Shown in pieces: positions 330 through 46,372 of a DNA stretch of 64,000 nucleotides. Each line of letters starts with the position of its first letter. The first letter of the stretch is position 1. A program made the translations under genes and the position numbers. Source of the stretch: Raillietiella orientalis (lineage: Eukaryota); contig JAYWIR010000027.1 in assembly GCA_036172245.1 (NCBI GenBank), forward strand, positions 1,612,001-1,676,000, given 5' to 3'. The notes below the pieces were generated by a model. That model did not search any database. It had not been told where the DNA came from and worked only from the letters and a program-made list of their open reading frames with translations.

Positions 330-1301
330 CACCGAGGTCACGGCTAGAGCCGCTGACCCCCAGTCCGCATGCGTAGATCCCGTCTGGAGGACGGGGAGCC
401 AGGGAACGGCCACTCGCCCTCCTGCCGTCCTCCACATGTCAGCACGAGGAGGAACTTCCGGTCTGCGCACGACCCAGGGGCCGCCGTCCGACCTCCTCCT
501 TTTGTAAGAGGCGCTTCCGGAACCGTCGGCCCGGTCACCCGGTGCGGGGTCGCACGCGCTCGCGAGCCGCCTCAGCAGAAGATGCCGCGGCGTGCGGCGT
601 GTCGGGGGCGTCTGCCGGGACGCACCATCCCAGCGACAGGCGCCTTTGGCACGGGAGTGTCCCTCGAGCGGAAGGAGACGGCCCAGGCGGAAGCGTCCTG
701 TCGTCCCGCGACGCGCCTCCGCCTTTGCCCGGTCGGGGTCGTGCCGCTGCCGCGCGCTGAGGGGGAGGCATCGCCCGGAAGCGCACCGGCGGCAGCGTTC
801 CCGGAGGAGAGGAGGAGGCGTCGCGCGCTCCCTCCCCACGCCCTCAGCCGGAAGCCCGGCAAAGGCCCGCCCGCGCGCGCGCGATCGCGGCGGACTCTTT
901 GTGGTCCCGCGTTCCCCTCCCGCGTATGCGGCGGCGGCGCCCAGCGTCCGACGCGGAAGGAACAACCCCCCGGACGCACCGGCTGAGGCCGAACGTTCTC
1001 CGAACGGGTGTGCACACCCCCACGCGGTTGGTAACACAGAGGGACGGTGCGCATGCGCCGTGAGTCAAGAGGGCGGACTTGTCGGCTCGACGGCCAGCGG
1101 AAGGACGCAGGTTCGAATGCCTGTTGGGAGCCGTTGGCTCCCTCCTCAGCGCGTCCGGAGGATGTCCCGGACGTTAAGAGCTCGTCGTGGGGACAGTAGC
1201 CCCCGGAGACGGAGAGGACCGAAGCTGGACGGACGTCGAGGAAAAGGGTGGAAGCTGTGGATAAATCCCCCTTCTCTCCCTGCCTGATGAAAAAAAAAAA
1301 A
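330..1301 (+). mobile_element. LINE-derived repeat, family A copy 1: decayed RT shadow, tRNA-like structured 3' module and A12 tail
   Basis: Near-identical copy at 34244-35082 and diverged copy at ~43050-43545. RT4-like 'TQGPPSDLLLL*EALPE' at ~470-520. B-box GGTTCGAATGCC at 1110-1121. A-run at 1290-1301. Confidence 0.6.
407..1245 (+). repeat. Near-identical direct repeat, block 1 (partner 34244-35082)
   Basis: Direct comparison; I saw one substitution (646) over ~840 bp. Confidence 0.97.
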
Positions 1302-1309
1302 GGAGGATG

Positions 1310-3330
1310 CTGAAAGCTGCGTGCTGGTGAGGGGTCCTACCATCCCGCTCTGGAGGGGGGAGGAGGAGGGGCGTCATTTGTGCCATGGTGACATACTTCG
1401 CCGAACACTCTCGGACCGAAACATGGGGCAGCGGTCTTCTCCCCCCTTCCACCCCCTCCGCCTCCCCACATCTCGGAACCTTAGCAACAGCTCTTCGGGT
1501 GCTTTCGCACGCGACCTTGGCCCTAGTCTTCCAGCAGGACAGGAGAGAGTTAACCCCTCCCGAAGGAACCGTGACATTCCGCCCGATACCCGCAGAGGAG
1601 ATAGCTGGCGACGTCCAAGTTCCGATGTGCATCGAAGGGAATTCGAGGAGGAGCGTTCCCTTTGGAGGTTTAGCGGGGCTGAAGCGGGAGAGTTCTCTTA
1701 AGCGATCTTCACCCTTTGGGCGGCTAAAAGTGAAAGCGCACAGGACCTCCGGGGCTGGGCATTGGGAGAGGCAGCCGCTCCCATCCTGGGCCTTGGAGTC
1801 TGCCAGTCTCGCCTTGGTTTCAGCCACGCGCAGGAGTCGTCCATATCCCCTCCCCCTGTTTACGCCCCTCCCCCGCTCGTCTTCCCTGGCTAGAAGGGAG
1901 CAGGTGCGTTCTTCGCCTTCCTACGAGGCGTCTGCTGGGAGATTTGCAGGTCGCGAGCGCTTTGCGGGAGGAGGTTTCGCCGGAGGCGCGGACGTTCCGC
2001 TGCCGTCACCATTCCCGGCGGTGGTTGTGGCGGTGACACTTTCGCTTTCAGCCGCACCCGCTGCGCCCCGCTCTTGTCATCCAAAGGCTGAGACGGGGGA
2101 AGGGACGTCACCCGCAGGTAGTTCGGAAAGACGCGAGCGAAAGAGAAAGTTCCGGAAGTCGCTGCTGGAGCTCGCTCGGGTCACGCCGGGAGGAACGCGA
2201 GCGCTGCGAAGGCAGAGGATGTCTCGAAGCGGCTGACTCCCGTTCCAAGAGTACGGGGAGGCATCTCAAGGTGCGAAGACCACCCCTGTGAGGCCAGTGC
2301 CCTCGCCTCGGCCAGAGGAACTTCCTTCCTGTGCAGGTTTCGCGCCCCGGCCTTCGGAGAGACCTCCCCCTGCTAGAAGAGCTGCAATGGGCTGCTGACC
2401 TCCGCTGCCAGGCCGGTGGTCATCAGCTCACCTTCTCACAGTTCGGCATGATGAGTCCTTGCGCAGCTGCCGGGTCTCTCCCGTCGTCACCGACTCCCCG
2501 CCTCCTCCTTTTCCCTCGAGCCACATTTGCTGACGTATCCCGCTATCGGGATCAGTCACGCAGGCTGGTCCTGGTCCTCTTCTCCTTCTCTGCCGGGCTC
2601 AGAGCCACTGGAGAGGATGCCGTTTCCGAGCTTGACTTTCGATGGCTTCCGCTCGCGTGAAACAACTCAGCGGATGTCCTTCCCGGAGGAGCGTTTTGCT
2701 CCTTCCCACCCGCAAATGGTCTGCAGTTCCCGTAGCAGCACCGGATGCCTCCGGTGTTCGCGAGGAGCTCTCGCGAGGTCCCGAGGAACATCCGCCGCGC
2801 ATCGCGGCGGTGCGGCGGAAGGTTTCCCGGGGACGCACCTGCCCTGACCGTGCCCTCTCTGTGTGCTGCTTCTCCCTTTCTTCCTGGGCAACTGCCCTAA
2901 TGCTCTGACCCGTCGACAGGGAGAAACGGCGTGCTCGCTCTGTCGGGCTGGAGTCTGGAGGTCCCGCTTCCTCTCCGGAAGCCGATCCTGCCCAGGACGC
3001 CGGGGAATGCGACTGTGGGTGACTGCAGGGCAGCGCAAGAAGTCCCGCTCGGATCGGGACGGGCAGGGTTCACCCGTTGACCCGGGCGTGGCGGCGGTTC
3101 CAGGGTAGGATGTGCGTGCCCCGTCCGTCACCCGAGGCCCTGAGGAGCCAATTTTCCAGGGGAAGCCTCTCTAGAGTGGTACTGACTGACGGCTGCCGAT
3201 CGATCCCGAAATCCGAGGCGTCGGACCCTCCTTGCTCCCAACTCCTGCAAGCGGGAGGGGGAAGAAGGGGGAGGGGACCGTTTCATCCTGGGTTTATCAA
3301 AGTTAAATGGGAATCTCCGCCTTGATCGGC
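1310..3330 (-). mobile_element. Decayed I/Jockey-type LINE 5' half (gag-like ORF1 plus APE endonuclease)
   Basis: APE shadows in ORF 1174..1827: 'RVAETKARL' (ETK), 'IGTWTSP' (Y.sP), 'SGGVNSLLSCW' (GDFN...W). Degenerate zinc-knuckle-like text at ~2800-2920. Confidence 0.35.
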
Positions 3331-3784
3331 TGGGAGTGCGTCGTCGCCTTCATCTCCAGACCGTCCCCCCGCTGTTAGGAAACTTTCGTCGAGACGGAAG
3401 CACATTCCCATCCCTTCTTTTCGGAAGATGCGGGGCGCACCGAGGCTTTCGTTTTCTTTTGTTTTGTTATCACCCTTTATTCCCTCCCCCCTTTCTTCGT
3501 TCCCCTTTCCCTCTCTTTAACTTCCGTGATGAGATCCGCGGTTCCTTTTCTCCTGCCCAGGCGAAGAGGCCACCTCGCCGTCGCGGCTGCGCTTTCCGGC
3601 GACGCTGTCTTCGGAACCACGGCGGAGCTGAGGCACGCTCACTGACAACGGCAAAGGTCGGTCTCTCCCCTCCACGGCCCTCGCTCGGCAGCCGCATCCC
3701 GCCGGCGGCGAGGAGACGGTGCGGTTTCGCAGCAGCCGCGGGGACGATCCTCTGCGTCCCGGGCGGTCCGTCCCGCGGTCGGCG

Positions 3785-5640
3785 CTGCCACCCGGTCCCT
3801 CCGGAACGTTCATTAATCAAAGAAAACTCGCAACTATCGTGGGGGTGGTGTACGAAGCTTCACCACAGCCAGTTCTATCGCAGACCTGCTGGGTCGCCGG
3901 TAGCAGACCAGCGGGGATCACCTCAGCAGCGGAGGAGGAAGGGAGAAAACGAAAATAGAGATAAAAAAATGAATAATAAATAAAAATAAATAAGAACATT
4001 CTGGTGGGTCGGGAAGGGACCAATGTCTGCTGGCAGGAGTCTGCCTCCTTTCCAGGATGCCAGCTTGGGATCGTCTGACCGCCATCCGCCGGAAGCGAAC
4101 GGCGAGCAGGTGGCGGCCCTCTCTTCTGGTTCCCTGCCGACTTCGCTCCGGGCCACCACAATCCTGCAAAGAGTTGCTGGTACTGCTGCGGCTAGCGGAA
4201 GGGCATCACGCACGAAGAGGAGCTGTGAAACATCTTTGGGGTTGCCAATCGGAATCCGGAGGGCCGTCCCAAAACCCGTTTCCTTAGGGGCTGGAGGGCA
4301 ATACGGTCCACGCGCAGGTGCGGGAGGGGGGATTCCCATTCCCCGCACCTGCGACGGTACGGACGCCCTTCCCAGAGTCCAGTGGTGTCAGCGGGGGTTG
4401 CAAGGGAGACGCCAGTGCAGCAGCAGAAGTGTCGACCCCTGGCGCTTCAGGGGGAGGGTGATTGTATTCTTGAGCGCTGGGGGCCACTGCAGGTCTTCCC
4501 GTAGAACACCGAGCAGCTCGCTCCAGAGGCATACAAGCTCGCGTGAAAGGGCGCTTGGGATCGCAACGTCAGCTGCCCCGTGGTCCAACCACTCATTTCC
4601 TCTTTCCTTCTTTCCAAAGTGAACGCTTGAGGGGACGTGCGAACGAGTTCTCGGATGGCCTTGCGTATTGCGGAGCTCGGGGCGACCGACATCAAAAAAT
4701 CTTGAATTCCCGGAGGAAGAAGAAACGCCCTTCCGGTCAGCGAGACGTCAGTGATCGTTCCTCTGATCTCCCGAAGAATCGCACTGCTGCCCTCTCCGCT
4801 CCCTGCGTGAGAATGGGACGGAGGAAGCCGCGTTTATGAGGCCAGTCGCAGTTTCCTAGAATCCTTCCAGTTCCTTGCATTTCCTCACTCAGCCCTGGGA
4901 AGGGGTTGAACGGGACGAAGCCAGCGGCCCCAAAATAGACTTGGAGATGACCGTCAGGGGGAAGCAAAGGTTTCGTGAAAACGCGTGTTCCGAGATCATC
5001 TGCGTGAAGCATCATCTGCAGAGATTCTCGAAACACGGAGCGACCGAAGTCTCGGGGAGCGTCGGCCGGTCCGAGAGGCGCGACCGCCGCGGAATCGCAT
5101 AAGCCGAGGGAGTTCCCGTCCGCTGATCCCTTCCGCTCCTTCGAGCGCCGTGCGTCGGCGACGACTCTCAGCTTTCCGTGAGCTCGTAACGTTCGGTTTC
5201 TTCGTCGTCCCGCAACCAGTCCGCCTCTTCCGAAAGGCACGTTGGTTCCCTCGAGATGCTGCGACCTGCAGGACGATTCTTCCACCTCTTCCCGCCCTTC
5301 GAGAGGATTCCTCACTGGCCTCGTGGCTCTCGAAACAGCAGTAGCAGCACACGTGCCCGAGTGCGAGGAACGACCTCAAGTGAGGATCTCGCCTTGACCT
5401 CGTTCGGACCGCTCGAGTGGAGGTGGGGACGCCGTGAGGACGCCGCCCTCCCTGCTGCCACCATTTTCGCCCCCGCAGGAGCCTTTTCACCTCCCTTTCC
5501 CAGAGGGAACAATCGCGGGGGCATCCCGCGAATCCACCACGTTTCGTTTACAGGGCTGCATCTCCATCCATCTGGTAATGCTCGCGGTCTTGCTCATGGG
5601 GTGGTCCAGCTGCTAACGTGTGCTACGTAGGACCGGTGCC
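3785..5640 (-). mobile_element. L1/Tx1-like family B: decayed ORF2 (RT core, C-terminus) and 3' UTR
   Basis: 'MMLHADDLG' (RT motif 5) at ~4989-5015, then 'GRILG'. C-terminal 'LFVRDAL' and the 3' UTR align with the copies at 6.1, 59 and 61.5 kb. Confidence 0.75.
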
Positions 5641-7420
5641 TCTTTCTTACCACCGCGACGACCTCCAGAAGACTCGGGAAGCGGCGTCAAAGAGGCGAAT
5701 CCGGACCCGGAGAAGTCCGCCCGGAGCTGCTTGCGTTCTTGCGGGCGTTATTTTCACCTGTGCCTCCCGCAGTGCCACTTGCCGTGGCGTGACGTGTCCG
5801 GGAGCGATTACTCCTTCCCGCAGGAGGCGTAGCGTGCGACCAGGATTCCGATGTCTTTTCCCGAGCTCCAGAAGGATCAACATCCGCGGAAGCGCCAGCC
5901 TCGGGAGGAGCACCGGCGTCCTCAGCGGCCGCACGAGCTCAGTGGAACTCACAGAATCCGGACTCTCAGGAGCGGCACCAGCAGCATCACCTATGAGATC
6001 CTCACAGGCTTCCGAGCGGGAACACCAGCACCGGAAACATCATCTCTGGAGGCAGGGAGACCAGAAGTGGAACCGCCAGCAGGGTGAGCAGGAACAGCAG
6101 GTTTAACAACCGAGCGAGCTGGGTCGTTTATTTTTAAACTAAACAAACATGTGTAGGGCCATCGGTCCTACAAAAGAGTTCCTACAAAAGGTTCGAAAGA
6201 GTTCGGAACTTGCCGAGTAACCGGCAAGCAGGCCGTCGAGGTTCACCTCGAAGCGGAGGGGGAGGAGACGAACAAAAACCAAAATAAAAACAAAAACACT
6301 ATTTACAAAAAAAATGGGAGTCTTAGGGAAGGGATCACTGTCCGTCTGAGGGCATCATCTCATCCTTTTCAGGATGCCGGCAAGTTCCATCCGAGTATGC
6401 CCCAGGTGGGACCATCTTGCTGACGTCCGCAGGAAGCGCAGAGCGAAGCTGAAGGCGTCCCTGCCGCTCCGTCCTCCTCCACTGGCGTCGCTCCAGGCCG
6501 ATACAATCCCGCGTAGACAGAACAAAGCTGCTAGAACTACAACAGACGAAAGAGCATCGCGCACGAAGAGTCGCTTGAACGCTCTCTAAGGTGGTCTCTT
6601 TGTGCACCTAGGGCCGTTGCGAAACGCAACCACAGGGGTCGGAGGGCAACACAGTCAATAAGCAGGTGCGGGAGGGATTCCCGTTCGCTGCATCTAGGAA
6701 CAGCGAGGTGGAACCGCCAGCAGGGTCAGCAGGAACGGAGTTGACAGAAGTGTCGGCCATCCTGCGCCGCGGCCATGACCTGCTGGTCTTCTCTCCAAGA
6801 GGCCCCAGAAAGGAGCTGGAATCTCTTCTGGCTTCATTTTCTCCAAAAGCGTCTTTCTCGACTTCCTGCAACTTCGAGAGGGGAGGCGGCGGCAGACGGA
6901 AAGCGAAAGTCACAGGCGGTGGCAGTAGGGTGGTTGCCAGTCGACCTCGGAAACGGGGGCATCACACTGACGTATCACGCTCCTCGCAATCGACACGCAC
7001 AAGCGGGGTCGCCACTTGACATGTGCGAAGCGAACAGATGCCCGAAGGGCCTGTTATCGATGGTCTCCAGGCGGATGCAAAAAGTACGTCATGGTGTCCA
7101 GTTGCCCTGAATTCAGACTATGTCCCATGTACAAACAAACCTGCCTTTGAGGTGCCCTCCATTAGTGCTGATTACTCATCACTTCAGTGCAGCATCACTG
7201 CCTCTGGACCAGCGTGCGCACTCGGGAGGTCTCTGCATCCCTTGCGGCATAGACAGAACCGGCTATAAACAATCGCCGTCGACCAGGCGCTGACTTTGGA
7301 CTTGCGCGCGCCCACCTGGTCTACCGGACCATCCACACCTGTAAGGGAATGCGAACGGAGGCTCTCGGCATCTACTTGGATGGAGCCTGAGGCGCCTGGC
7401 GAGGGAAGGACGTAGCGCGA
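5640..7420 (-). mobile_element. Probable ORF1 relic of the L1/Tx1-like element, interrupted by a nested insertion
   Basis: 'DWQPPYCHRL' at ~6915-6945 resembles Tx1 ORF1 Y.gQP..C..C. Followed by a 36-bp tandem dimer encoding VPA(D/H)PAGGSTS. Lies upstream of and co-oriented with ORF2. Confidence 0.3.
6101..6695 (-). mobile_element. 5'-truncated family B L1-like insertion with ~11-bp target-site duplication
   Basis: Aligns with 61498-62070 ('LRFLRT.ARW.HLGHTRMELAGIL'). Flanked by AGGAACAGCAG (6090-6100) and AGGAACAGCGAG (6696-6707). Confidence 0.8.
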
Positions 7421-7449
7421 TGCCATCCGGGTCCAGGCGCGATGCCTCC

Positions 7450-9110
7450 ACTAGGACGCATCATGGATCCGCAAAAAAACCTCGGGGCTCCAAAGAGCAG
7501 GGACGGAGCACGGGACGGAATGCGCCAGCACCCATCGGCGCCTGCGGCTCGCGACTGTCGCGAGGGAGGTTCCAACCAGGACCGGGTCTCAGAATGGCTC
7601 CCAACGTCTGTTCCCGTGCGCGGCAGCGGGAACCAACAGCGTGCTCCTCAGAGCCGGACGTAGGAGAGATCGTGCGGCCAAGCCAACAACGGGCGCTCTG
7701 ACACCGAACCAAAGAGCAGCCACAGGTGGCCTCGTTTCGAGCCAGCCGCTTGCAGGCGGCCAGCGCGCGGCTTCTTCCTCCAGACCGAGGGACGAGACGC
7801 CAGTCCCAGCGCCGGAAGAAGGGAGGTGGAGGGAGGGGAGGAGCGGGAAGTGCCTGGGAGCGCCTCCCTCGTTCCCATCCGACGATGTACCGACCCCAGC
7901 GAGGGCGCTCCCAGTGGCGGCTGCAAACACCACAGGCGAGGAGGCCGAAGACCCACCCCGTTCCCATCCTCCGCCATGAGCGTCCTCAGGAGCGGATCCG
8001 TGCCACAAAACTCGGGAGAATCCAACCCGCCCACTTGCAACCTGGTTGCGGCGTGCGGGTGGCAGGCGTTGCTCCCCACTCCGGATCGCACCCCCAGGGC
8101 TCCCAAACCCACCCGAAAGCCGACCACCGCTCCTGTGCGAAGGGCGGCGTTTCCACCCTTTCCGCTCCAGTGCAGGCGGACAACCTGCTGCTCCCGCTCC
8201 CGCTCGCCGCTAGAGGAGCACGCGTCAGGGAGCGGAAGACGTAGCCTCCCGGCAGAGGACGCGGGCGATATTCCGCAACCTCCGCAGAGCGAGTCACCCC
8301 TCCCCCCCCCTTCCATCCGGAAGACGCGGCGCAGAGCGCATTCGAGGGAAGCCCTGGGCAACTCTGCCGAAACCGGGATGGCAGCGCTTCGGGAGGCGCC
8401 GAGGCAGCGGGGCAACGGGAAGCGGCGATCGCAGGGATCGCAGCCTCGCGAGGAGTTGCGCGCGCAACGGCAGGTCCGTCGAAGCGACTGTCCCCAGAGG
8501 GGGAGGGGCGCACCACGGGCGCATCCGGGATCCAAGGACCCAGCGGATGGACCTGGTCGAGTCGGGGCTCGAGGATGGGTGCGCCAGCGCCGCAGGAAGA
8601 ACTGGGAGGCTTGCCCCGAGCAAGAGCAGCGACGGCGGCGGAGGTGCCCCTCTTCCGCTCTCCTTGCCTGCAGCCGGGTTCTTCTCCAGGCTCCCGGCGC
8701 CAGCAGCCGTTCGCTCCCACACACGGATTCGGGCACCCCGCGAGTCCGAGGACGCCTCAGGTGATCTCTCCGCCTCAGGCATTGCAGGGGCCGACAGATC
8801 CCTCGACGACAGCTGCGAGACGAGGAGGTGGTCAGGTCCTGAATGACTCATGTGGAGCGAGTCATAGACTGCGAGACGAGGAGCTGGGTCGGGTCGGCGC
8901 CACCGCTCCCTGTTCCCTAGCGACGGGACTCCTCCGGAAGGGCGACCTGCCCCGAAGGATTCTCGCGCCCCTCTCCTCCCCCTCGTGTGCGGACGCTTCC
9001 GCGTTCCGGCTGAAGAGGAAACCGCAGCTGGCGATCCCCGGTGCCGCACCTGCACCAGGGATCGCCAGCGCCGACCTGCGCAGGCCACCCGCTGTCCGGG
9101 GGGGTTGACT
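7450..9110 (+). mobile_element. Decayed CRE-like non-LTR element, N-terminus and RT domains 0-1
   Basis: C2H2-like 'QCRRTTCCSRSRSPLEEH'; 'WSGPE*L' (GPDGL); 'LLRKGDLPRRILAPL...LKRKPQLAIPG' (CRE RT1-like). Confidence 0.35.
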
Positions 9111-10299
9111 CCCCGAGCCGATCCACAGAAATACGTGTATTCAATTAAGGATTTAATTGTGCGACGGGATCGCTCCCGCTTGACTGCTGCGCCCTCGCGG
9201 ACACGTGGAGGGGACCGGTCTCGGAGTGGCGCCACCCGGAGGACAGTGCCAAGTACTTGTCTGCGGGGCGCGGTGATCGCATCGATCTGTCGCCGCCGTC
9301 CCGGCCCATGGTGACGCCCTCGCTCGCAGCGAGGGTCTAAAGGGGGTTCCAATAAGGGGAGGATATAAGGTTCATCCTGCTCTTGGTCCTGTTGAGTACA
9401 AGATACCGAGGAACAGTATGGAGAAGGATGGGGTCAAAATCTGAAGTTCTTGAGTCGTGGGAATGCTCTGTCGGCGGCCGCCTCGCCCCGCGATGAGGAC
9501 GGCTGCGAAGGGATGGGCTCTCTGGCGAGAAGGAGAAGTCGCCAGGGAGGCCGCCCCCAGCATTCAGAGCCAGCTGCGGCAGGGAAGGAGAAACCGGAGC
9601 CAAAGTCCCTCCTTCTTTAATTCATTTCTTTGTTTCTCGTCCCCTCTCCCTCCCTCCCTCCCGACTCCCTCCGAAGCCGGTGGGCGAGCTGGTCGTATCG
9701 CCCCCATTCACCCCCTCCCCTTTTTCTTTTTTTTGCCATTTTTTTCATTTTGAGCCGGACGACCAGGCGTGACCCGGTGGAAAAGAAACCGGGGCCCACG
9801 CGGGTCAGCACTTCCGCAGTGCGGCCATCCTGCGCGTCCGCTCCTCAGGGAGCTGCAGTCCTCCGCTCCTCCGGTGGTTCCTCTTCCGCTCCCTCTCTTC
9901 GGGCGGTGCACCCGCCCCCGCTTTCCCAGCTGAGGTCGCCTTCCTCGGGTGGTGCGCGTTCTCCTTGACGCGCCCCGGGAGCATCGTCTCGCTCGGACGC
10001 TCGAGCGATCCCGGAGGACGCTCCGCGGCTGCTGCTCCTCCTTCTTCTCCGAGACCGCCTTCGGACGCGATCCCACGTCGGTTCCAGGCTGCCGGAGGGC
10101 ACCGCATCACCATTCTGAGTTGCTCGGAGATGCTCCTCAGTTCCCTCTTCCTTGACAGATGAGGGGATAAAGAAGGAGGGGGTCTCAGTCGAGTCCAGGA
10201 ATTCCTCCCGGTCGCTCTTCGTGACGACGAACGCGTCCTGCGCTGACTGAAGGGAGAGGGGGGGACGTCGCGCGCCGTGGGGACCAAGCGGCCCCTCTG

Positions 10300-11100
10300 C
10301 GGGCACAGGGAGCGGACGCTCTTTGCCCGAGGTGAGTGCCGATTGTCCTGGAAGCGGCCCGCGAGCTGCCACTCTTCTTGACCGGTCAACCGAGAGCGTC
10401 TCCCGTCGGTGCGCTTCGAGTCCATGAGAGCCCGGCGGGCGGTGCGACTGCGCAGTCGGGTTCCCGCCGTGGTCACGTATCTGAGCGATTCTCCCTCGAG
10501 ACGGACGAGCGTTCCCGGAATTGGGGTGCCGCGGAATCCTTGCGTCGTCTCGCCACTCCTCCTACCTCGCCCGGAACTTCCGCGGACGCGTCCTGCAAGG
10601 TGCTCCTAAGATCATCCGAAGGGGCGAAACGGGATACCGCTAACTTGGTCCTCCAGACACAACCACTGGAAGACATGTACGTGAGAAGGATGGAGGAATC
10701 TTTTTCGGTGCTTCCTGCCTCCCAGAGTGAGGTGCGGATGCTGCTGGGGGTTCGGTAGTCATCCGTAGGCAACGTCCCCCTATGCACTTGCAGGCTGAGA
10801 GAATTCATGTTTTCCGGTTCCGCAGCACTGCTGAAGCCCTCGAAATTCCTATAGGAGGAGGGTCGTTCAGCAACGAGCGTTCGGAAGGAGTTGTCCTGCA
10901 CGCCAAGGTGGCCGATGACCTTTCCGGACGGGTTGGGACCTACGGTCTTCTTCTCGGCTCTGGAGACTCTTCTCTGCTCTCTCTCTGTTAGGCTGCTGAA
11001 GCTTCAGTTTGGTTGCCGTTCGGGTGTTGGCAGACGCCTTCCGGCTATTCCACGGAGTGGTCCCGCGCCCAGTCGTTCGGATGGTGTCTTAGTCGTGTAG
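10300..11100 (-). mobile_element. Decayed L1-like C-terminal zinc-binding (zf-RVT) fragment
   Basis: 'VHRGTLPT...EKDSSILLTY...CVWR' in ORF 10473..10901 resembles H..LPT / E..Hll..C...vW. Confidence 0.35.
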
Positions 11101-11199: not shown

Positions 11200-13330
11200 C
11201 GACCGAAGACCTCCAGGACGGAAGCTCAGTCTCCACGGAAAGAAAATTCCACACGGCTCCATTGTTAGAGCTCTCTGCCTCTCATCAACCAGAAGAGCGA
11301 GCCGCGTCACATCCTTCGACTGGCACCTCAGGGGCGCCAAGGTGAGGGATAATGGATGGGAACCTTCTCTACCATATCCGCATCGTGGCCGTCCCCTTAC
11401 CTTCTCCACTCCCCCCTCCTCCCAATCTCGTCTTCCCCGGGCGGCGATCCAGACCGGTGCTCCCGGGAACGACGCGTTCACCGCTTCATTCCCGCTTCTC
11501 CCTGCCGTCGCCCGGCAACCTTCGGGTCCTTCGGCCGCTTCGCCCGTCGCTCGGAGCCGGCGACGGACGCTCGAACGGGCTTCCGCGGAGGCGCCGCGAA
11601 GAGCCAGCGCCCTCCTCTTTCGCCCTCCGCTCCAGGTCCCCCGAAGCAGCGGAAGACCGAACGGGTCTTCCTTCGTCCCGGGACTCCCTGCGCGACGTCC
11701 GGAGTAGTTCCCTCCCCTCCCCGGGAGTGGGACCGACTCGCTTCCAGGCAGCGCTCTCGGCGCGACTCGCCGGTTCGTCGTGCCCTTCGGTTCTCCTCCT
11801 TGAGCAGGCAGTGCCGTGCCCCTCCCGTCGGCGCGGCATTGCTGGTGGGAGGCGATGGCGCGCCTCGCGGGTCGATCCGCGAGGCAGGGAGAGGCGATTC
11901 AGCGCGCCGTCCTTGCGCCGCGGCCGCTCCGTTCCGGGACGAGATCCCGCCCTTCCCCAGGCTCCTCGGACGCACGGCTTGGGACGCGGAGGTCGAGACG
12001 AGCCGCATCGTTTTGAAGCGTCGCATCGTCCGCCTCTCGCGGGCATCGCCCTTGCTGAACGGTCGCCCGGAGTGGCGCCCTTCGCGCCGCCGTCCTCCCG
12101 GGGAAGAAGCGGCGTTTCTCTGAGACTCTTCGCGGCAAAACGCCAGGGGGGAGACACGGGCGCTGGTCTGGCGACTTTTGCGGGAACGAGGGGTTCGCGG
12201 AAGCGAGCCCTGGCGGTCACCATCGCACCCTGGTCCGACGCCGGCAGTGCCTTCGTCGGGAGCCATCTTGCAACCGTAGGCTACATTCAACGCTCTCCAG
12301 AAAAACGAAGATGCCTTGAGGCACTATGGTGTGCAGCACAGGATGCGGAAACGACCTTGGCTCGGTCCTCGCTCGCTTATGGCCAAGGAAAGCCACGCCT
12401 TGCGTTGGCTCGTGTAAAGGGTCGAGGTGGCCTTCTTCGCTCACCGTTGGAAGGGAGAACACACGAATCTGTCCAGGTGAGGTCACACCTGCCGAACTTC
12501 CCTTCGTTGGCTCCGGGCATGAATTCTCTCCCGGATCTTCATTCCCGTGTCGGCAACTCCTGTGGTCCACTTTCCCTTTCTTCGCATTTGATGAGGTCAA
12601 ATCTATGGGCGAGAGTGCGAGCGACGCCCGCTGACAGACCGACTCTCACTTTGGGTGAACACCCCCAACGAGCCGGCGGTAGACTTCGAAGGGGCGAGCC
12701 GCGTTCCGCCTATTTCGCTCCCAGACTCTCGCCAGCTCCCTCCAAATCGATCCTTTCGTCTCTTTTCTCCCCGGGCCAGAGTCTCGCAGACTACTTCGTG
12801 ACGTTAGCAGCGAGGATCTCCCATAGCTCCATGGTTTCCAGAAGCCGTCCGGCAGGAGGCTACGACGGGAGAGAAAGAGCCCGAGACTCAAGCTAGCAGC
12901 CCACTCCTACAGATGTGACAGAAACGCATGCGCGGCACCTATCCCAGGACACGCAGCACCGGAGGCCTTTGATCCCGGATTGTCGAGCCTCCCACTGGAA
13001 GTGAAGGAGCAGGAAGGACGCTGCAGTCGTAAAGGACCGACTCGAAACCGAGGGGGGCGGCGCCACTGCTGGGGTCAGGCTCAGGGAGGACGCGCGGAAC
13101 CCAGCACCGCTGGAAAACCTAACGAAGAGAGAAATCGGGAACGGCCACGGCGAACCCGACACCAGGGGCCCCCAGGGACCGGGTCGCGCAGCAGCGACCG
13201 GGGAGAACCAGCGGGTCTCGGGCGTTCCCGAGACTGCAAGCATGGTCCCGACAGGCCTACGGGTCTGCCACCCCGGGTCACGGTTTCTCGGTCAGGAGTG
13301 AGGGAGGTAGCGTGCGTCTCCCCGGGCTGA
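11200..13330 (+). mobile_element. Decayed R2/NeSL-like RLE element (RT, CCHC, restriction-like endonuclease), family C copy 1
   Basis: 'RRRREEPAPSSFAL' (RT4), 'SLSRQC' (RT6), 'RLLG' (RT7), 'RKDAAVVKDRL' (RHD.V), 'GEPD'. Homologues at 36.4-38.3 kb and 43.6-45.1 kb. Confidence 0.45.
11378..12270 (+). repeat. Near-identical inverted repeat, block 3 (partner 37342-38234)
   Basis: Reverse-complement match of 893 bp; about 3 substitutions seen. Confidence 0.97.
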
Positions 13331-14642
13331 CGTCCACCCTCATCACCCGCTCCGGAGGCAACCGTCGCGCGCGAGCAGCAGCGAATGGACGGAGGCTCCC
13401 CGCCGACCGGGCTTGCCACAGCTGGCAACGGACATCTCTTGAAACGGGCGCCGTGGGGCGGCGCCGGGGAGATGCCTCGCAGACGCGCGCATCCATCCGT
13501 CCCTGACGCAGCCTCCCGCACCGAAGGGTGCGTGCTGTGGCAGGGTTCCCACCCGCAGCGGCGGGTGCCATTCCTCCCCGCTGGAGCGCGAGGGAGGCGT
13601 TCTTCGTCCCGGGGGAGTAGCAGCCTAGCGCGCCGGCGAGATGGGAGCCTGCCGGCGGAGCAGCAGCGGAAGGCGGCGCCGACCGCCAAGGCCGGCATCC
13701 CGAAGGTTCCGCGGCGAGCGCCTAGTCGACGTCTCGCCGAGCCCGGAAAGGGGACGGCGGCAGCATCCCTGCACGCGAGGAAATCCAAGCGGCCTCGAGA
13801 CGCCCTTCCATCCCCCGCCCAGCCCCCGGAGAATCCCGCAGAGGACGCCTGCCCTCCTTGGCCACCCTCGATCCCCCACCCCGTCTGCAGGCGGCGGCGA
13901 CGTTTCCCCCGTTTCGACCGATGGGCGTCCGATGCGAACCCGCCAGCCCGATGGCGGTGGCGGCGGTGGCGGCGGCGGCGGCGGCGCGCCAGTGCTGGAG
14001 GGTGTGGGAGGGGAGAGGGCCGCGTCTCCACGTTCCCACGACTCCGAACGCCCCCCCCCCCTCCTCCTTCCCTCGCACGCTCGCTGGGCCGTCGGCATGC
14101 GGGTGCGGGGAACTGCGCACTCGGCAGCGGCACCCACGGTCGGGACCCACGGCCCTCCTAACCCTCGAGTGATCCGGGGAAAGTGGGGCCCCAGCTCGAA
14201 AGACCACGCCTGGCACCAGTGTGAAGGCGGTGGGTGGCGCACGCGCGGGTCGGCGTCGCGGGTGCTGGGCACGGTGCGAGGATGGTGGATCGATCCGCCC
14301 GGTTCCTGGTTGCCTGGGTGATGATGCCAATCTTTTCCCCCCTTCCTCTTCCTCATACTCCTCCTCTTCTTCGTCGTCGTTACCGTGGTTCTCTCGCGCG
14401 CCACCATCCTCGAGATCACCTCGGGATGGCGGGCGCTCTGCCTCTCCCGGCAGAGCTAACGGCGGGACATCTCCGCGTCCAAGTGACCTCGACCCGTTTT
14501 CGGAGTTCGGGCTGGCGGCCAAGCTGGGCATGGTGGTGGAGTGCGTTGACCGGCCTCGGGTTGCGGCTCCCTCCCTCCGGGCGGGGGATTCCATGTTCCG
14601 GGAGACTCCCGCCGCCCGGTGTCCCCTTCCGACCGGGAGGTG
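13010..14642 (+). repeat. Near-identical direct repeat, block 2 (partner 44745-46372)
   Basis: ~1.63-kb match; I saw two substitutions and one C-run length difference. Confidence 0.97.
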
Positions 14643-16050
14643 TCTGCTCGGCCCCATTGGGTAGCGATGCACGCGTCCGGGGTGCCCGTGATGTTCGCGC
14701 TCTAGCGTGGTCACGGGGTCCGGGGATGCTTCCCATGAGGAGCGGGGGAAGGGGAAGTTCCCGCAGAGGGGAATGGGTGAGGCTATCCAAATGGGATTCC
14801 TCGCTTGCATCTGTCGTGGGAGTAGGAGCTCGGGTTCTCAGACAAATGCTGGATAAAACGTGGGGAGCGCCCTTTCCTCGGTTCAAGCGTAGAGTTGTAG
14901 GGCGGCTTTTCCGAGGTTTGCCGCAACGTTCCGGTTGCCTGGGCGACGCCGACTTCCTCCTCTTCTCCTTCCTCATCGTCTCCTGGGTCCTTCCACGAGC
15001 CGACCGCCTCCCCGCCAGCTGCGGTTGCCTCCTCCAGCCTTCGCCCACTCAAATAGGGTGACCATGTCTGCGAAGGCTGCTGGCGTCTTCGTAGGCGATC
15101 TAGCTTTCTCGAATTTTTCCCGCCACCGGTAAGCCCGTGTGGTGCGCGGGATTTCCCGCGTGGGCGCTCCCGCCGGCCGGGAAGGGGAGCAGCGCCTCCT
15201 GAGACCTCAACAGGACAAACAGGATTGCGACTCTTTCGAGGAAAACGGGAGGATCGGCGCGGCAGCTGGGGCGCTTCGCGGGCGCACCGAGGGGCGCCTC
15301 TGGAACGACCTCGGTGGCGGCGGCGGGGTGCCGCTCCTCCGGAAGCGTGTCGACCGCTTCTCAGATATGGAGGGGGGGGGACGCCGCTGTAGCCACGGGT
15401 CTCCGGGCGGAGTTGGCATCTCCCTCTCCTTGTTTGTGTATTTGCGGCTGGCTACCCGCGCTCGGAGAAAGGCCAGGATGGGCAGATGTTCGATTGCGGA
15501 GGCGGTGGGAACGTAGGACCGATCCCCCGGGAACGTCCGCGCGCTCTCCGTCCTCGGGATTTTCCGGCAGCTCATCCATCGATCCCACGTGTTTGCGCGG
15601 CGCGCGGGGCTCGGCCCCAGCTTTGCGAGGACGTAGGAGAGGGCTGAAAGGATTCCTCGCCGTGCGCAGCCTCCCTTCCTCCTGGTTGCCCGTAAACAGG
15701 TCGATCGATTCGTCGCCGTCCTGGCGACGTGCCGCCTGCCACGAGTTAACGCCGCTCGGTCTCACGGGCCTCTGGTTCCCGTGGCAACTCCGCGCGCGCT
15801 CCCGCGGTGGCCTCGCAGTGACCCCGGCTGGCGCTCCTGTCTTTATGCTCCAGAGCTGGCTTACCCCTCCCTCTCCCCTTCCCCTCTTCCGTCTGCTCCA
15901 CCCTCGTTTACAATCCTTCCCTTCCTTTCCCGTCTCACAGGAAACAGCTCGCACATCTGCCCAAGAGCCACCTGTGGAGCCCCGACTCCGGTGCCAGAAA
16001 GAGGGACGGGACGTCCCCAGGTCCCCCTAGGCAGACGCGGGCGCATCGAG
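13400..16050 (-). mobile_element. Decayed CRE-like element(s): RT, thumb and RLE, apparently two tandem pieces
   Basis: 'ARNPFSPLLR' (NAFN..R), 'FPGDRS' (QGDP), 'PLGAP', 'LRSQEALL', 'RKGTPGGGSL' (GGLG), 'PPADGVGDRGW' (RPAD), 'ACRDAAAVPFPGSARRRLG'. Confidence 0.5.
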
Positions 16051-35082: not shown

Positions 35083-35099
35083 TCCTCCTGCTTTGTTTC

Positions 35100-36399: not shown

Positions 36400-38280
36400 T
36401 CTCTCTGCTTACCGACCTCCGGGACAAGGATGAGGCTCTGCTACTCCCGATCCCTCTCGATCCAGGCTGGGCACCCACGACCGCTGCCGAGACGCCGCCC
36501 TGGATCGACGACGAACGCCGTCCATCGCCTTCGAGAGACTCACGGAGCGTTCGAACCATCCGCCTGGAGCGGCAGCCAGTGGACGGCCGCTCGAAGCGGC
36601 GCAGTGTTGCATGACCGTCCACTGCCTGGCACGAGGAAACGAGTGCTGCAGTCGGACTGTCCCTTTAACCCTCCGACGAACTATCCCCAGACAAACGCCG
36701 CACCAGGCTGCTGCCTCCACTTTCCCTGGGGGATGCCGTCCGCGGTCAGACGACTCCGGGACGCGGATCGCGTCGTTTCTCCCGGTTGCTTTTGGATTCC
36801 TGGGAGGAGCGTCTCGCAGATCCCTTCGATCGTTCCTTGCTCGAAACTGGCCCTAGAGAAAGGGGATGCTACCCGCGTCTGGAAACCACGCTTGCAAGCA
36901 ACGTCGAAGGCGGCACCTCCGACGAGGCCAGCACTCGCTCCCCAGTCCATGAAACGGGACTATGAAACGGGATATTCCAGGACGACTACCATCCTCCGCG
37001 GCTGCCCGGAGGTTTCTTCGTGGTCCGTGAGGTAATCCCGAAAGGCCCTTCGAGGCCAGCGGGGGAGGCGAGCGGAGTGGGAGACCTGCAGAGGAAGCGG
37101 GCGAAGCCTTTCGAGCGCCGAAGGGCACAGATCTTCCCGGGCGTTCGAGCTCCGTCCGAAGGCCGCCTGCAGGTCACCTTCTCAGCGCAACTTCCAGACG
37201 CTCTCTTGAAAAAATGTGCCCCAAGGCGGAGGGGAAGAGACCGTTGCCGAGTGCTAGAATTCGTGTGCCGCCCAAAGGCACCGCTTGGAGAAGCTCCCTC
37301 GTGGGCGCGGCGCTGAGGCTCGAGGTTCCCCTTTCGGGATACAAGATGGCTCCAGACGAAGGCACTGCCGGCGTCGGACCAGGGTGCGATGGTGACCGCC
37401 AGGGCTCGCTTCCGCGAACCCCTCGTTCCCGCAAAAGTCGCCAGACCAGCGCCCGTGTCTCCCCCCTGGCGTTTTGCCGCGAAGAGTCTCAGAGAAACGC
37501 CGCTTCTTCCCCGGGAGGACGGCGGCGCGAAGGGCGCCACTCCGGGCGACCGTTCAGCAAGGGCGACGCCCGCGAGAGGCGGACGATGCGACGCTTCAAA
37601 ACGATGCGGCTCGTCTCGACCTCCGCGTCCCAAGCCGTGCGTCCGAGGAGCCTGGGGAAGGGCGGGATCTCGTCCCGGAACGGAGCGGCCGCGGCGCAAG
37701 GACGGCGCGCTGAATCGCCTCTCCCTGCCTCGCGGATCGACCCGCGAGGCGCGCCATCGTCTCCCACCAGCAATGCCGCGCCGACGGGAGGGGCACGGCA
37801 CTGCCTGCTCAAGGAGGAGAACCGAAGGGCACGACGAACCGGCGAGTCGCGCCGAGAGCGCTGCCTGGAAGCGAGTCGGTCCCACTCCCGGGGAGGGGAG
37901 GGAACTACTCCGGACGTCGCGCAGGGAGTCCCGGGACGAAGGAAGACCCGTTCGGTCTTCCGCTGCTTCGGGGGACCTGGAGCGGAGGGCGAAAGAGGAG
38001 GGCGCTGGCTCTTCGCGGCGCCTCCGCGGAAGCCCGTTCGAGCGTCCGTCGCCGGCTCCGAGCGACGGGCGAAGCGGCCGAAGGACCCGAAGGTTGCCGG
38101 GCGACGGCAGGGAGAAGCGGGAATGAAGCGGTGAACGCGTCGTTCCCGGGAGCACCGGTCTGGATCGCCGCCCGGGGAAGACGAGATTGGGAGGAGGGGG
38201 GAGTGGAGAAGGTAAGGGGACGGCCACGATGCGGGCGTGGTCGAGAATCTTTTCCGCTCGTTCACCCTCTCCCTTCATTC
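36400..38280 (-). mobile_element. Family C R2/NeSL-like relic, copy 2
   Basis: Contains block 3 and continues into 'ILYPERG' (thumb) and 'CGVC...LQH...QH'. Confidence 0.45.
37342..38234 (-). repeat. Block 3, copy 2 (inverted)
   Basis: Reverse complement of 11378-12270. Confidence 0.97.
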
Positions 38281-43040: not shown

Positions 43041-43049
43041 GACTACAAG

Positions 43050-43545
43050 CTTCCTTTCTCGCCCCCAGGAACCCAAGGATCAGCTCGAGAGATTGCGGCG
43101 GGCTCGCTGGCGGTCCCGTGCTTCCCTCCCGCGAATGCGGCGACGGTGTCCTGCAGGAGGGGTGGGAGGTGGGCGTGCGAAGGGAGGCTACTGGACGGCG
43201 GCTTCGACGCCCAGCGTCCGATGCGGAAAAAGGAGCATCCCTGGACGCACCGGCTGGGGCCGAACGTTCTCCGAACGGGAGCACACACACCCATGTGGTC
43301 GGGAACACCGGGGGGAGGTGCGCACGTGCATGCGCCGTGCGTCAAATGGGCGTACTCGACGTCTCGACGGCCAGCGGAAGGCTGCGGGTTCGAATACCGG
43401 CTGGGAGCCGTCCGGTCCATCTTTAGCGCGTCGGGAAGTGTCCCGGCTGCTGAGCGCTCGTTGCAGGGCAGCAGCCCTCGGGCAACGGAGAGGAAGCTAG
43501 ACGGACGTCGAGGAAAGGGCTGGAAGGTGTGGGAACTCCCCCCCC
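43050..43545 (+). mobile_element. Family A, diverged copy 3
   Basis: Aligns with ~825-1275 with a ~60-bp indel; B-box GGTTCGAATACC at 43387-43398. Confidence 0.85.
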
Positions 43546-43559
43546 TCCCCTTTCGCACC

Positions 43560-45060
43560 CCTTTGCGCAGTCACGGTGTCTTCCCAGTCGCTGAATGAGC
43601 TCCAGGCTCGTCCTCCGAGAAAGTCGAGATCGGCCAACGAGCTCTGGGAGATTTGCAGATATTTCCATCACGAGGATCTCGCGTGTCGCAGCGACTCCTC
43701 CTCCCCTCTCTCCTTTGCCTTCACCAGGGCAACGCCTCGTAGTCTTCCACGTCGCGAGCGTCCCGCCATCTGCAGCCCTGCGCGCGGGATTCGCTCACGC
43801 TCGCTTCGTACCGCGCGTGCGATGCACGGCTCTTCCCGTTCCTCCTCCTCCCAACCTTGCATTCTACCTCTCTGCTCCCATCGGAAACCGTTCCTGCGGG
43901 ATGGGCCCTCCCGCTTTCTCGAGTCAATTAGGACGCAGATGTGGAGCCATTCATCTCCTTTTCATTAGCCGCGCGGCTAATGAGAAAGCTGTTTACCGAA
44001 AGGTCCCGGAGCTTTGCACGTGCACGCGCATCTCTCGGACCGGAGTTCCCACTAAGCCGCGGTCCACCTCCCTGGCTCTGGCGGGAATCTCGAAATGTTT
44101 TCTGCCTCCGCGGTCAGGTTGCGGTCGGGGCTTCGTCCCCTCCACCGGCACAGGTCTAATCCTTCCGGGCAGACAGCTGACCCGCCCGCGACAACGAAGC
44201 CGCGTCGAATAGATCTGCTCAGCTCCCCCGCGGGTGCTGCCGGCACCCGAGTCCTCCCGTCGGCGTCTTTTTCCGAATGAGGAAGGAGCGCAGTTAGACT
44301 GCTCTGTTGATCACCGGCCAGTCTTCGATCTGCGCCTCGGGAAGGCGAGGCCGAAAGGGTCCCATCGTCCTCCAGTCATCTGCAGCAGCGAACGGCTCCA
44401 CCGGCTGCGGAGCGAAGGAACGCCGAAGCTTCCCTTGCACCTCCGTGTCGAGCATTCCACGTGGATGGAGAGAAGGGCTTTGCTTTCCCCTCTTCCCTCG
44501 GATCTCTTCCTTGCTTTTCGTCCTTCCCGCAATCAGTTTCTGAGGCCGCGGCGTCGCCTCAGCAACCCGCAGAGCGGCCGCGCATCTCCTTACGCTCTCA
44601 GGCGCCTGATACTCTCAAGAACGCGAACGGAGCCCCCATCGAGGCAGCCTTCCTGCCTTTCCTGGAGGATGTATCCGGCGAAGAGAGCCTCCCTGCTGGA
44701 CCACTTCATCCCGAATTGCCGAGACTCCACTGGAAGCGAAGGAACAGGAAGGACGCTGCAGTCGTAAAGGACCGACTCGAAACCGAGGGGGGCGGCGCCA
44801 CTGCTGGGGTCAGGCTCAGGGAGGACGCGCGGAACCCAGCACCGCTGGAAAACCTAACGAAGAGAGAAATCGGGAACGGCCACGGCGAACCCGACACCAG
44901 GGGCCCCCAGGGACCGGGTCGCGCAGCAGCGACCGGGGAGAACCAGCGGGTCTCGGGCGTTCCCGAGACTGCAAGCATGGTCCCGACAGGCCTACGGGTC
45001 TGCCACCCCGGGTCACGGTTTCTCGGTCAGGAGTGAGGGAGGTAGCGTGCGTCTCCCCGG
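43560..45060 (+). mobile_element. Family C R2/NeSL-like relic, copy 3
   Basis: 'LPVPPPPNLAF' matches 'LPPPPNLVF' at 11.4 kb; 'LLDHFIPNC' (H....C); 'RKDAAVVKDRL'. Confidence 0.45.
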
Positions 45061-46372
45061 GCTGACGTCCACCCTCATCACCCGCTCCGGAGGCAACCGT
45101 CGCGCGCGAGCAGCAGCGAATGGACGGAGGCTCCCCGCCGACCGGGCTTGCCACAGCTGGCAACGGACATCTCTTGAAACGGGCGCCGTGGGGCGGCGCC
45201 GGGGAGATGCCTCGCAGACGCGCGCATCCATCCGTCCCTGACGCAGCCTCCCGCACCGAAGGGTGCGTGCTGTGGCAGGGTTCCCACCCGCAGCGGCGGG
45301 TGCCATTCCTCCCCGCTGGAGCGCGAGGGAGGCGTTCTTCGTCCCGGGGGAGTAGCAGCCTAGCGCGCCGGCGAGATGGGAGCCTGCCGGCGGAGCAGCA
45401 GCGGAAGGCGGCGCCGACCGCCAAGGCCGGCATCCCGAAGGTTCCGCGGCGAGCGCCTAGTCGACGTCTCGCCGAGCCCGGAAAGGGGACGGCGGCAGCA
45501 TCCCTGCACGCGAGGAAATCCAAGCGGCCTCGAGACGCCCTTCCATCCCCCGCCCAGCCCCCGGAGAATCCCGCAGAGGACGCCTGCCCTCCTTGGCCAC
45601 CCTCGATCCCCCACCCCGTCTGCAGGCGGCGGCGACGTTTCCCCCGTTTCGACCGATGGGCGTCCGATGCGAACCCGCCAGCCCGATGGCGGTGGCGGCG
45701 GTGGCGGCGGCGGCGGCGGCGCGCCAGTGCTGGAGGGTGTGGGAGGGGAGAGGGCCGCGTCTCCACGTTCCCACGACTCCGAACGCCCCCCTCCTCCTTC
45801 CCTCGCACGCTCGCTGGGCCGTCGGCATGCGGGTGCGGGGAACTGCGCACTCGGCAGCGGCACCCACGGTCGGGACCCACGGCCCTCCTAACCCTCGAGT
45901 GATCCGGGGAAAGTGGGGCCCCAGCTCGAAAGACCACGCCTGGCACCAGTGTGAAGGCGGTGGGTGGCCCACGCGCGGGTCGGCGTCGCGGGTGCTGGGC
46001 ACGGTGCGAGGATGGTGGATCGATCCGCCCGGTTCCTGGTTGCCTGGGTGATGATGCCAATCTTTTCCCCCCTTCCTCTTCCTCATACTCCTCCTCTTCT
46101 TCGTCGTCGTTACCGTGGTTCTCTCGCGCGCCACCATCCTCGAGATCACCTCGGGATGGCGGGCGCTCTGCCTCTCCCGGCAGAGCTAACGGCGGGACAT
46201 CTCCGCGTCCAAGTGACCTCGACCCGTTTTCGGAGTTCGGGCTGGCGGCCAAGCTGGGCATGGTGGTGGAGTGCGTTGACCGGCCTCGGGTTGCGGCTCC
46301 CTCCCTCCGGGCGGGGGATTCCATGTTCCGGGAGACTCCCGCCGCCCGGTGTCCCCTTCCGACTGGGAGGTG
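44745..46372 (+). repeat. Block 2, copy 2
   Basis: Matches 13010-14642. Confidence 0.97.

What the first reader, a model, noticed from the sequence alone, without database searches (positions are those of the whole stretch)
407..46372. Three ~99%-identical, GC-elevated tracts embedded in register inside long-dead retroelements: candidate ongoing ectopic gene-conversion network
Seen: 407-1245 = 34244-35082, 13010-14642 = 44745-46372, and 11378-12270 = reverse complement of 37342-38234, each with only about 1-3 differences. At several ends identity fades into diverged but alignable flank (e.g. 12965-13010 vs 44700-44745; 350-407 vs 34187-34244; 11360-11378 vs 38234-38250). No TSDs or tails bound the tracts. 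The shared sequence is already frameshifted and non-coding. Hand counts of single 60-nt lines give 72-77% GC inside (lines 841, 11521, 13681) versus 52-55% just outside (lines 241, 12301, 14821). One old element (11.2-13.3 kb) carries two separate tracts with two different partners. Inference: DNA-level homogenisation with GC-biased conversion between old paralogues, not retrotransposition. Such repeats could serve as recombination platforms, as SIDER2 repeats do in Leishmania.
Basis: partly seen in the sequence, partly recalled or inferred. Interest (0 to 1): 0.7.

Follow-up and report, generated by a model that had tools for sequence, protein, structure and literature searches.

The report
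Local DNA twins kept near-identical
Short stretches of GC-rich non-coding DNA occur twice a few tens of kilobases apart in an animal genome, almost identical in the middle but worn at the edges; this most likely reflects repeated copy-to-copy repair (gene conversion), a known process that seems unusually common here and favours oppositely oriented copies.

Summary
The three pairs are real: 1-3 differences each and 70-71% GC against 62% background. They belong to a larger local set (four more pairs or copies within 70 kb). Cores differ at 14 of 6,762 sites, while short shoulders differ at 50 of 274. A third copy of tract C joins a 99% core to an 87% remnant, so old duplicates have been overwritten: non-allelic gene conversion is the best reading. 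Not supported: that the tracts sit in register inside paralogous retroelements. Homology ends within 77 bp, the partners of A, C and G are bare fragments, and no retroelement origin was shown for A, B or C. GC bias is modestly supported when pooled (27:39 against 43:129, p=0.018) but absent in tract A. In 864 kb sampled, 15 of 17 independent near-identical pairs were inverted and GC-richer than their flanks, unlike older repeats. One inversion at pair B would make both direct pairs inverted. No reads were available, so an assembly artefact is unlikely but not excluded. This scan noted the same pattern before, on other DNA of this genome.

The parts
330..406 (+). Diverged left shoulder of tract A (79% to 34171-34243)
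407..1245 (+). Tract A core, GC 0.714; direct twin of 34244-35082. Its right third belongs to a 4-copy local family; this copy runs on 34 bp into family-shared flank
7636..10594 (+).
11365..12270 (+). Tract B, GC 0.704; inverted twin of 37342-38247; no other copy found in the genome
12271..12968 (.). Unpaired gap between B and C, GC 0.58; DIRS-like motifs by eye only, not verified
12969..14646 (+). Tract C, GC 0.705; direct twin of 44705-46376. The middle (13628-14233) has a third, inverted 99% copy at G000:C27:1681215-1681815. Continues about 255 bp past the tract into a 75% paralogue on contig C99
34171..35082 (+). Copy A' with shoulder; lacks the family-shared right flank
37342..38247 (-). 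Copy B'
43137..43550 (+). Unpaired old relative of the right third of A (78%), used as outgroup together with a fourth copy 11 kb before the window
44705..46376 (+). Copy C'; stops where C continues into the C99 paralogue
57402..57579 (+). Small pair D, 96% to inverted 59548-59725
59548..59725 (-). Copy D'
58615..59141 (+). Tract G, GC 0.66, inside an old LINE-family remnant (65% to 61739-62587); inverted 99% twin at 63954-64480
63954..64000 (-). In-window end of copy G' (continues to 64480); bare fragment without LINE-family flanks

Best explanation
These are old, small, local duplications of non-coding repeat-derived DNA whose cores have been kept alike by non-allelic gene conversion in cis. 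Step 1 (inferred): a 0.2-3 kb piece is copied to a site 0.5-60 kb away, mostly inverted, by templated break repair or template switching; the partners are bare fragments (shown for A', C', G'). Step 2 (pattern shown, process inferred): the two copies serve as repair templates for each other. Conversion needs homology on both sides of a site, so the outer 15-75 bp drop out and age, while the core stays at about 0.2% divergence. If this is a steady state, conversion per site is about 400-500 times faster than mutation (my arithmetic, 1/0.0021). Step 3 (partly shown): heteroduplex repair favours G/C, which slows or reverses the AT-ward drift seen in unpaired relatives, so cores end up 5-10 points richer in GC than flanks; part of the excess is inherited from GC-rich source sequence. 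Step 4 (inferred): inverted pairs persist because a crossover only flips the spacer, whereas direct pairs delete it. The two direct pairs A/A' and C/C' each have one copy inside the B-B' spacer, so one flip at B/B' could have turned former inverted pairs into direct ones.
For: Core 14/6,762 against shoulders 50/274 differences; the shoulders have the substitution spectrum of old paralogues (54% transitions against 61%). C'' is 99% in its core and 87% (62/71) beyond a ~195-bp deletion, which a single recent copy of C cannot give. All copies at 98% or more of A, B, C and E lie within 58 kb on one 3-Mb contig of a 210-Mb genome. In 864 kb: pairs at 95% or more are 16 inverted: 4 direct, mean GC +0.094 over flanks; older pairs are 21: 30, with +0.003 (<85%, n=46) and +0.039 (85-95%, n=5); Fisher p=0.004, Mann-Whitney p=1e-5. 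After removing three implied rows, 15 of 17 are inverted (p=0.002). Tract GC exceeds flank GC in 13 of 15 pairs. Tract against unpaired paralogue, GC:AT asymmetry is 189:134 inside against 85:91 outside (Fisher p=0.03). Polarised AT>GC: GC>AT is 27:39 on tract lineages against 43:129 on unpaired lineages (p=0.018). The flip would also shorten the A gap from 33.0 to 13.3 kb and the C gap from 30.1 to 8.1 kb. Known precedents: GC-biased non-allelic conversion (10.1101/135152), GC-rich palindrome arms (PMC8981503), conversion-kept inverted repeats in Caenorhabditis (PMC1803023).
Against: No orthologue and no second individual, so non-reciprocal transfer and its timing are not shown; one recent long conversion gives the same snapshot as continuous conversion. 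Several ends are abrupt (A right, E right; 11 of 30 ends not above the null 99th percentile), and some of the 19 ends above it rest on a single nearby mismatch. Tract A shows no GC bias (4:16 against 8:34), and A and E lineages still drift net toward AT. The pooled effect leans on G, whose outgroups are only about 65% identical and whose unpaired flank is also somewhat GC-richer than its paralogues. C inside against outside is p=0.068. Pairs are not independent, and three of the seven regions were not picked at random. The B/B' flip has no junction evidence, and it would make C and C'' direct.
Confidence: 0.66

Rival explanations
1. Single recent templated copying: a break is repaired by invading a nearby short homeologous remnant, 0.5-3 kb is copied once and the end is rejoined. 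The cores are simply young, and GC richness reflects which sequences get copied.
For: One-sided anatomy at A and E (long shoulder on one side, abrupt other end); partners are bare fragments; no GC bias in A; aligned paralogues of A are almost as GC-rich as A (0.67-0.68 against 0.68-0.70).
Against: Needs 40-77 bp homeologous seeds at both sites for many pairs although no wider homology exists there; pooled substitution bias toward GC on tract lineages needs time under conversion; older local repeats show no GC excess or orientation bias.
Confidence: 0.2
2. Assembly or library artefact: collapse or polishing made diverged copies look identical, or whole-genome amplification chimeras created local inverted duplicates.
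For: Amplification chimeras are more than 85% inverted and intramolecular (PMC1855051 abstract), close to the 15 of 17 seen here; the library type is unknown.
Against: Chimeras prime on 2-21 nt, not on 40-77 bp diverged shoulders; cores carry 14 substitutions plus copy-specific poly-C and GGC lengths; an inserted twin needs two junctions 26-58 kb from its source; an artefact would not raise GC or bias substitutions against outgroups; tracts are short and lie in a 3-Mb contig.
Confidence: 0.08
3. Functional constraint: both copies are conserved regulatory or RNA elements held by purifying selection, or hidden exons of duplicated genes.
For: The edge-to-core gradient resembles constraint; earlier scan notes on this genome report exons inside such twins (unchecked).
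Against: No Pfam hit in 64 ORFs, no Rfam or tRNA match, ORF lengths at chance level; G and E are made of repeat-family DNA; independent selection would not hold kilobases at 99.8%.
Confidence: 0.04
4. Young mobile units (SINE, MITE or retroposed fragments) with fixed ends.
For: Copy A' ends in a short A run and has a shared 6-mer at both junctions; the genome has a large LINE family with long open frames.
Against: Only 2-3 near-identical copies, all local; no terminal inverted repeats or consistent target duplications in 11 copies; C'' ends differ from C/C' ends.
Confidence: 0.02

Closest known systems
Non-allelic (interlocus) gene conversion and concerted evolution of duplicates (Fawcett and Innan 2011, PMC3924837, passages; Harpak et al., 10.1101/135152, abstract and passages)
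   Same: Identical tracts next to diverged homologous sequence; conversion stops at large indels or as divergence builds up; GC bias (67% in humans).
   Different: Here the units are tiny, non-genic and interleaved, have almost no homologous flank, and the implied conversion-to-mutation ratio (hundreds, if steady state) is far above the roughly tenfold human average.
Conversion-maintained inverted repeats of Caenorhabditis (Zhao et al. 2007, PMC1803023; parts 1-2 of 4 read)
   Same: Invertebrate, short arms at 95-100% identity, structure older than the sequence identity suggests.
   Different: Those flank paralogous gene pairs with spacers of hundreds of bases and were proven by orthologues; here spacers are 2-58 kb, no genes were found, pairs cross each other, and no orthologue was available.
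Primate X/Y palindromes with GC-biased arm-to-arm conversion (Jackson et al. 2021, PMC8981503; Hallast et al. 2013, PMC3723533; abstracts)
   Same: Over 99% arm identity, arms GC-richer than flanks, multi-kilobase tracts, rare inversions by crossover; part of the GC excess predates conversion.
   Different: Arms here are 0.2-3 kb with spacers much longer than the arms; two pairs are direct; no link to a sex chromosome or to genes was tested.
Leishmania repeat groups, mostly SIDER1/2 (Ubeda et al. 2014, PMC4028189; passages)
   Same: Non-coding repeats of 0.2-2.5 kb, often two-member groups, 1-100 kb apart on one chromosome, direct or inverted.
   Different: SIDERs are one retroposon family with a regulatory role and demonstrated amplicons; here the sequences are unrelated to each other, mostly inverted, and no gene lies between them in this window.

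Membership tests
Non-allelic gene conversion between local duplicates | Near-identical tract adjoining clearly diverged homologous sequence | tested here: met
   Cores 14/6,762, shoulders 50/274; C'' 99% core next to an 87% remnant
Non-allelic gene conversion between local duplicates | Twins closer to each other than to their orthologues in a related species, or variants shared between copies across individuals | not testable with these tools
   No relatives held for G000; no run listed
Non-allelic gene conversion between local duplicates | AT-to-GC substitution bias on converted lineages | tested here: inconclusive
   Pooled p=0.018 and 0.03; none in A, B untestable, C p=0.068
   Homology ends within 77 bp of the cores; A', C', G' lack the family flanks that A, C, G keep
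   No hit with 30 LINE ORFs from this genome, Pfam, phmmer on 1.84 billion proteins or own-genome searches; DIRS-like motifs by eye and from memory only. G is LINE-family DNA
Sex-chromosome-type palindromes | Inverted arms over 99% identical | tested here: inconclusive
   Met for B, E, G; A and C/C' are direct
Sex-chromosome-type palindromes | Large arms with a short spacer (definition recalled) | tested here: not met
   Arms 0.2-3 kb, spacers 2-58 kb
Sex-chromosome-type palindromes | Arms GC-richer than flanks | tested here: met
   13 of 15 pairs
Sex-chromosome-type palindromes | Location on a hemizygous or non-recombining chromosome | not testable with these tools
   Contigs are unnamed; similar pairs occur on 6 of 7 contigs sampled
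Young mobile element (SINE, MITE, retrocopy) | Many dispersed copies with fixed ends, target duplications or terminal repeats | tested here: not met
SIDER2-like recombination platforms | 0.2-2.5 kb repeats at 85% identity or more, 1-100 kb apart on one chromosome | tested here: met
SIDER2-like recombination platforms | One degenerate retroposon family; detectable circles or amplicons | not testable with these tools
   A, B and C do not match each other; junction products need PCR or reads

The most novel reading that the evidence does not exclude
This animal runs a genome-wide, short-range (under 60 kb), orientation-selective conversion regime in ordinary non-coding DNA. Roughly 2,000-4,000 small inverted pairs (extrapolated from 4 per 400 kb and 17 per 864 kb) are homogenised hundreds of times faster than they mutate, gain GC relative to their surroundings, and act as flip points, so that direct pairs such as A/A' and C/C' are by-products of an inversion at a nested pair (B/B'). 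Such conversion may help build the genome's GC-rich domains.
Probability: 0.25. Interest if true: 0.65.

Novelty: new variant of a known kind. Interest (0 to 1): 0.4.

Why it matters
The process is known, so the three tracts alone are an ordinary example. What could matter is the scale and the rule. In 26 parthenogenetic animals a gene-based screen found at most 19 palindromes per genome (PMC7953838, passages; a different method from mine), whereas this genome seems to hold a near-identical local pair every 50-100 kb, mostly inverted and GC-enriched. If confirmed it would be a good system for measuring non-allelic conversion rate, distance decay, orientation dependence and GC bias in neutral DNA, and it predicts many small inversion polymorphisms. 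It also warns that such repeats look young when they are old.

Tried and rejected
Sequencing runs: none was listed for window 6500-15500, so no reads could be laid; no evidence either way. DIRS origin of the 11.2-13.3 kb stretch: suggested by recalled motifs in the minus-strand translations, but 0 hits in phmmer on 1.84 billion proteins, 0 in Pfam, best other own-genome hit E=0.012, only self hits for the B frame, and no Phage_integrase match in the genome; left unproven. No Atlas result was obtained for it. RNA genes: 0 Rfam and 0 tRNA matches. Coding function: 0 of 64 window ORFs in Pfam (64 picked from 182 of 150 aa or more); ORF lengths at chance level. Third copy at 43.6-44.7 kb: not found. 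Protein-level flank homology by tblastx: none beyond the shoulders. Zero near-identical matches between the seven sampled regions was not used as evidence of locality, because the sample is 0.4% of the genome. Haplotype duplication rejected: the DNA between tracts does not align. Rows dropped before counts: three implied pairs (20 to 17); and one search used 15 of the 20 rows (two pairs cut by region ends and the three implied rows left out); the pooled edge profile was not used because rows 36c and 10a inflate it. Paper searches for the same pattern in arthropods gave nothing relevant; subscription journals and supplements were not seen.
Full report
Setting. The window is G000:C27:1612001-1676000 in a 210-Mb, 491-contig eukaryote assembly. 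It lies in a GC-rich domain (most 10-kb bins 0.57-0.65 over about 150 kb); 20 kb downstream the DNA drops to 0.32-0.39 GC with CpG depletion and holds a TFIIH p44 gene in short exons that scores higher against the p44-type chains than against yeast Ssl1. I read this as an animal; 'arthropod' comes from earlier scan notes and was not tested. No gene was found in the window: 0 of 64 long ORFs hit Pfam, and Rfam and ARAGORN found nothing.

Observation. The three pairs exist at the stated coordinates: A 407-1245/34244-35082 (direct, 1 mismatch), B 11378-12270/37342-38234 (inverted, 3), C 13010-14642/44745-46372 (direct, 2 plus a 5-bp poly-C difference). Open frames in the tracts are as long as chance gives at this composition.

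The set is larger. With 100 kb added on each side: E 7636-10594 has an inverted 99% twin at +65646-68604; the middle of C has a third, inverted copy C'' at +69215-69815; G 58615-59141 pairs with 63954-64480 (inverted, 99%); D 57402-57579 pairs with 59548-59725 (inverted, 96%). Whole-genome searches with A, B, C and E found every copy at 98% or more within 58 kb on the same contig; all other matches (2, 0, 7 and 32 rows) were older or very short (the tool warns that counts are lower bounds).

Edges. Cores of A, B, C, E and G differ at 14 of 6,762 sites (0.21%); six shoulders differ at 50 of 274 (18%), with a transition share like that of old paralogues (0.54 against 0.61). Against a null of swapped flanks, 19 of 30 ends extend beyond the null 99th percentile, though some only by one nearby mismatch; A right and E right are abrupt. 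The clearest case is C'': after its 99% core it skips about 195 bp and then matches C at 62 of 71 sites. A single recent copy of C cannot give that, so an old duplicate has had its core overwritten.

Homology stops within 77 bp of the cores, also at protein level. Outgroup copies show which twin sits in its original context: A runs 34 bp on with the copy at 43.2-43.55 kb, C runs 255 bp on with a 75% paralogue on C99, and G runs about 400 bp on with its LINE-family relatives; A', C' and G' do not. The partners are therefore locally copied fragments, not matching parts of two inserted retroelements. A retroelement origin is supported only for G (its 65% relative at 61.5-63.2 kb hits LINE ORF2 of this genome, E=7e-6); E holds pieces with dispersed relatives. 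The 11.2-13.3 kb stretch shows DIRS-like motifs by eye (recalled) but failed every search. The claimed third copy at 43.6-44.7 kb was not found.

GC bias. Comparing each tract with one unpaired paralogue, sites where the tract has G/C and the paralogue A/T outnumber the reverse 189:134 inside tracts and 85:91 outside (Fisher p=0.03). Three-way polarisation gives AT>GC: GC>AT of 27:39 on tract lineages against 43:129 on unpaired lineages (p=0.018). This rests on G (17:7) and E (6:16 against 12:62); A shows nothing (4:16 against 8:34), B has no outgroup, and C is 30:24 inside against 16:29 outside (p=0.068). So the bias is modest, mostly a slowing of AT-ward drift, and part of the GC excess is inherited, as was also concluded for primate X palindromes (PMC8981503, abstract).

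Generality. Six more 100-kb regions were taken (two centred on weak GC-rich hits, four at arbitrary coordinates). In 864 kb there were 20 rows at 95% identity or more, 17 independent pairs, in 6 of 7 regions, 0.5-58 kb apart; 15 of 17 are inverted (p=0.002), 10 of 10 outside this cluster. As a control, older local repeats are 21 inverted: 30 direct with little or no GC excess, against 16: 4 and +0.094 GC for the near-identical rows (p=0.004 and 1e-5; rows not independent). Earlier scan notes describe the same pattern elsewhere in this genome, and one raised the orientation rule but judged its sample too small; they gave me the leads to test orientation and to look at the palindrome papers, and count as no evidence.

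The two direct pairs. Both are in this window, and each has exactly one copy inside the spacer of the inverted pair B/B' (C and A'). Flipping that spacer would make A/A' and C/C' inverted and bring them to 13.3 and 8.1 kb apart, though C and C'' would then be direct. This is a prediction, not a result; no junction evidence was available. Rare inversions by crossover between converting arms are known from the human Y (PMC3723533, abstract).

Mechanism. Shown: local near-identical twins, aged edges, bare partner fragments, GC excess, inverted excess. Inferred: origin by local templated copying; upkeep by repeated conversion in cis; loss of direct pairs by deletion; steady-state conversion some 400-500 times faster than mutation. 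Confidence 0.66. Rivals: single recent copying (0.2), assembly or amplification artefact (0.08; amplification chimeras are also mostly inverted but prime on 2-21 nt, PMC1855051 abstract), selection (0.04), young mobile units (0.02). Reads could not be examined.

Comparison and verdict. It works like non-allelic gene conversion with concerted evolution (PMC3924837, passages; 10.1101/135152, abstract and passages) and like the conversion-kept inverted repeats of Caenorhabditis (PMC1803023, first half). It is not a sex-chromosome-type palindrome (small arms, long spacers) and resembles Leishmania SIDER repeats only in size and spacing (PMC4028189, passages). Seven searches found no paper on such dense, non-genic, inverted, GC-enriched twins in an arthropod, but the library lacks most subscription journals and I read no supplements. 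A gene-based screen of parthenogenetic animals found at most 19 palindromes per genome (PMC7953838, passages). Interest 0.4.

Noticed in passing
G000:C27 window 1-76000 against L028-L030 (about 20-40 kb past the window end): Strongly two-part genome: domains at 0.60-0.68 GC with CpG o/e near 1 and no gene found in the window, next to 0.32-0.39 GC DNA with CpG o/e down to 0.14 that holds at least one gene, which suggests gene-body methylation.
   Followed up: partly
L029:3900-5120: TFIIH p44 (Ssl1-like) gene in short exons on the + strand.
   Followed up: partly
L037-L066 (for example C71:71454-94060, C26:2876858-2883267, C189): Large LINE family (endonuclease + RT, open frames up to about 1,200 aa or more, L1/Tx1-like by recalled layout); many top hits are spaced about 5.5 kb apart in the same orientation, as in tandem arrays.
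   Followed up: no
window 9331-9472: A 142-bp unit inside tract E with many dispersed relatives at 75-90%, three of them 18.3 kb apart on C33; no Rfam match.
   Followed up: partly
window 34166-34171 and 35082-35087: Copy A' ends in a four-A run, and the same 6-mer sits at both of its junctions, like a target duplication; about 1 in 10 by chance over 11 copies by my estimate.
   Followed up: partly
window 1075-1135, 43.3-43.4 kb and the copy 11 kb before the window: The four-copy family within tract A contains a stretch resembling a tRNA B-box (motif recalled); possibly an old SINE head. ARAGORN finds no tRNA.
   Followed up: no
L017 (G000:C27:1512001-1520240): Inverted pair of at least 2,423 bp at 99.9%, next to a LINE ORF2 3' end; cut by the edge of the fetched region.
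   Followed up: no
L081-L085 (G000:C36:1414800-1454400): A second interleaved cluster of three inverted near-identical pairs (1.7-3.5 kb, GC 0.64-0.68), one with a long, gradually diverging side.
   Followed up: partly
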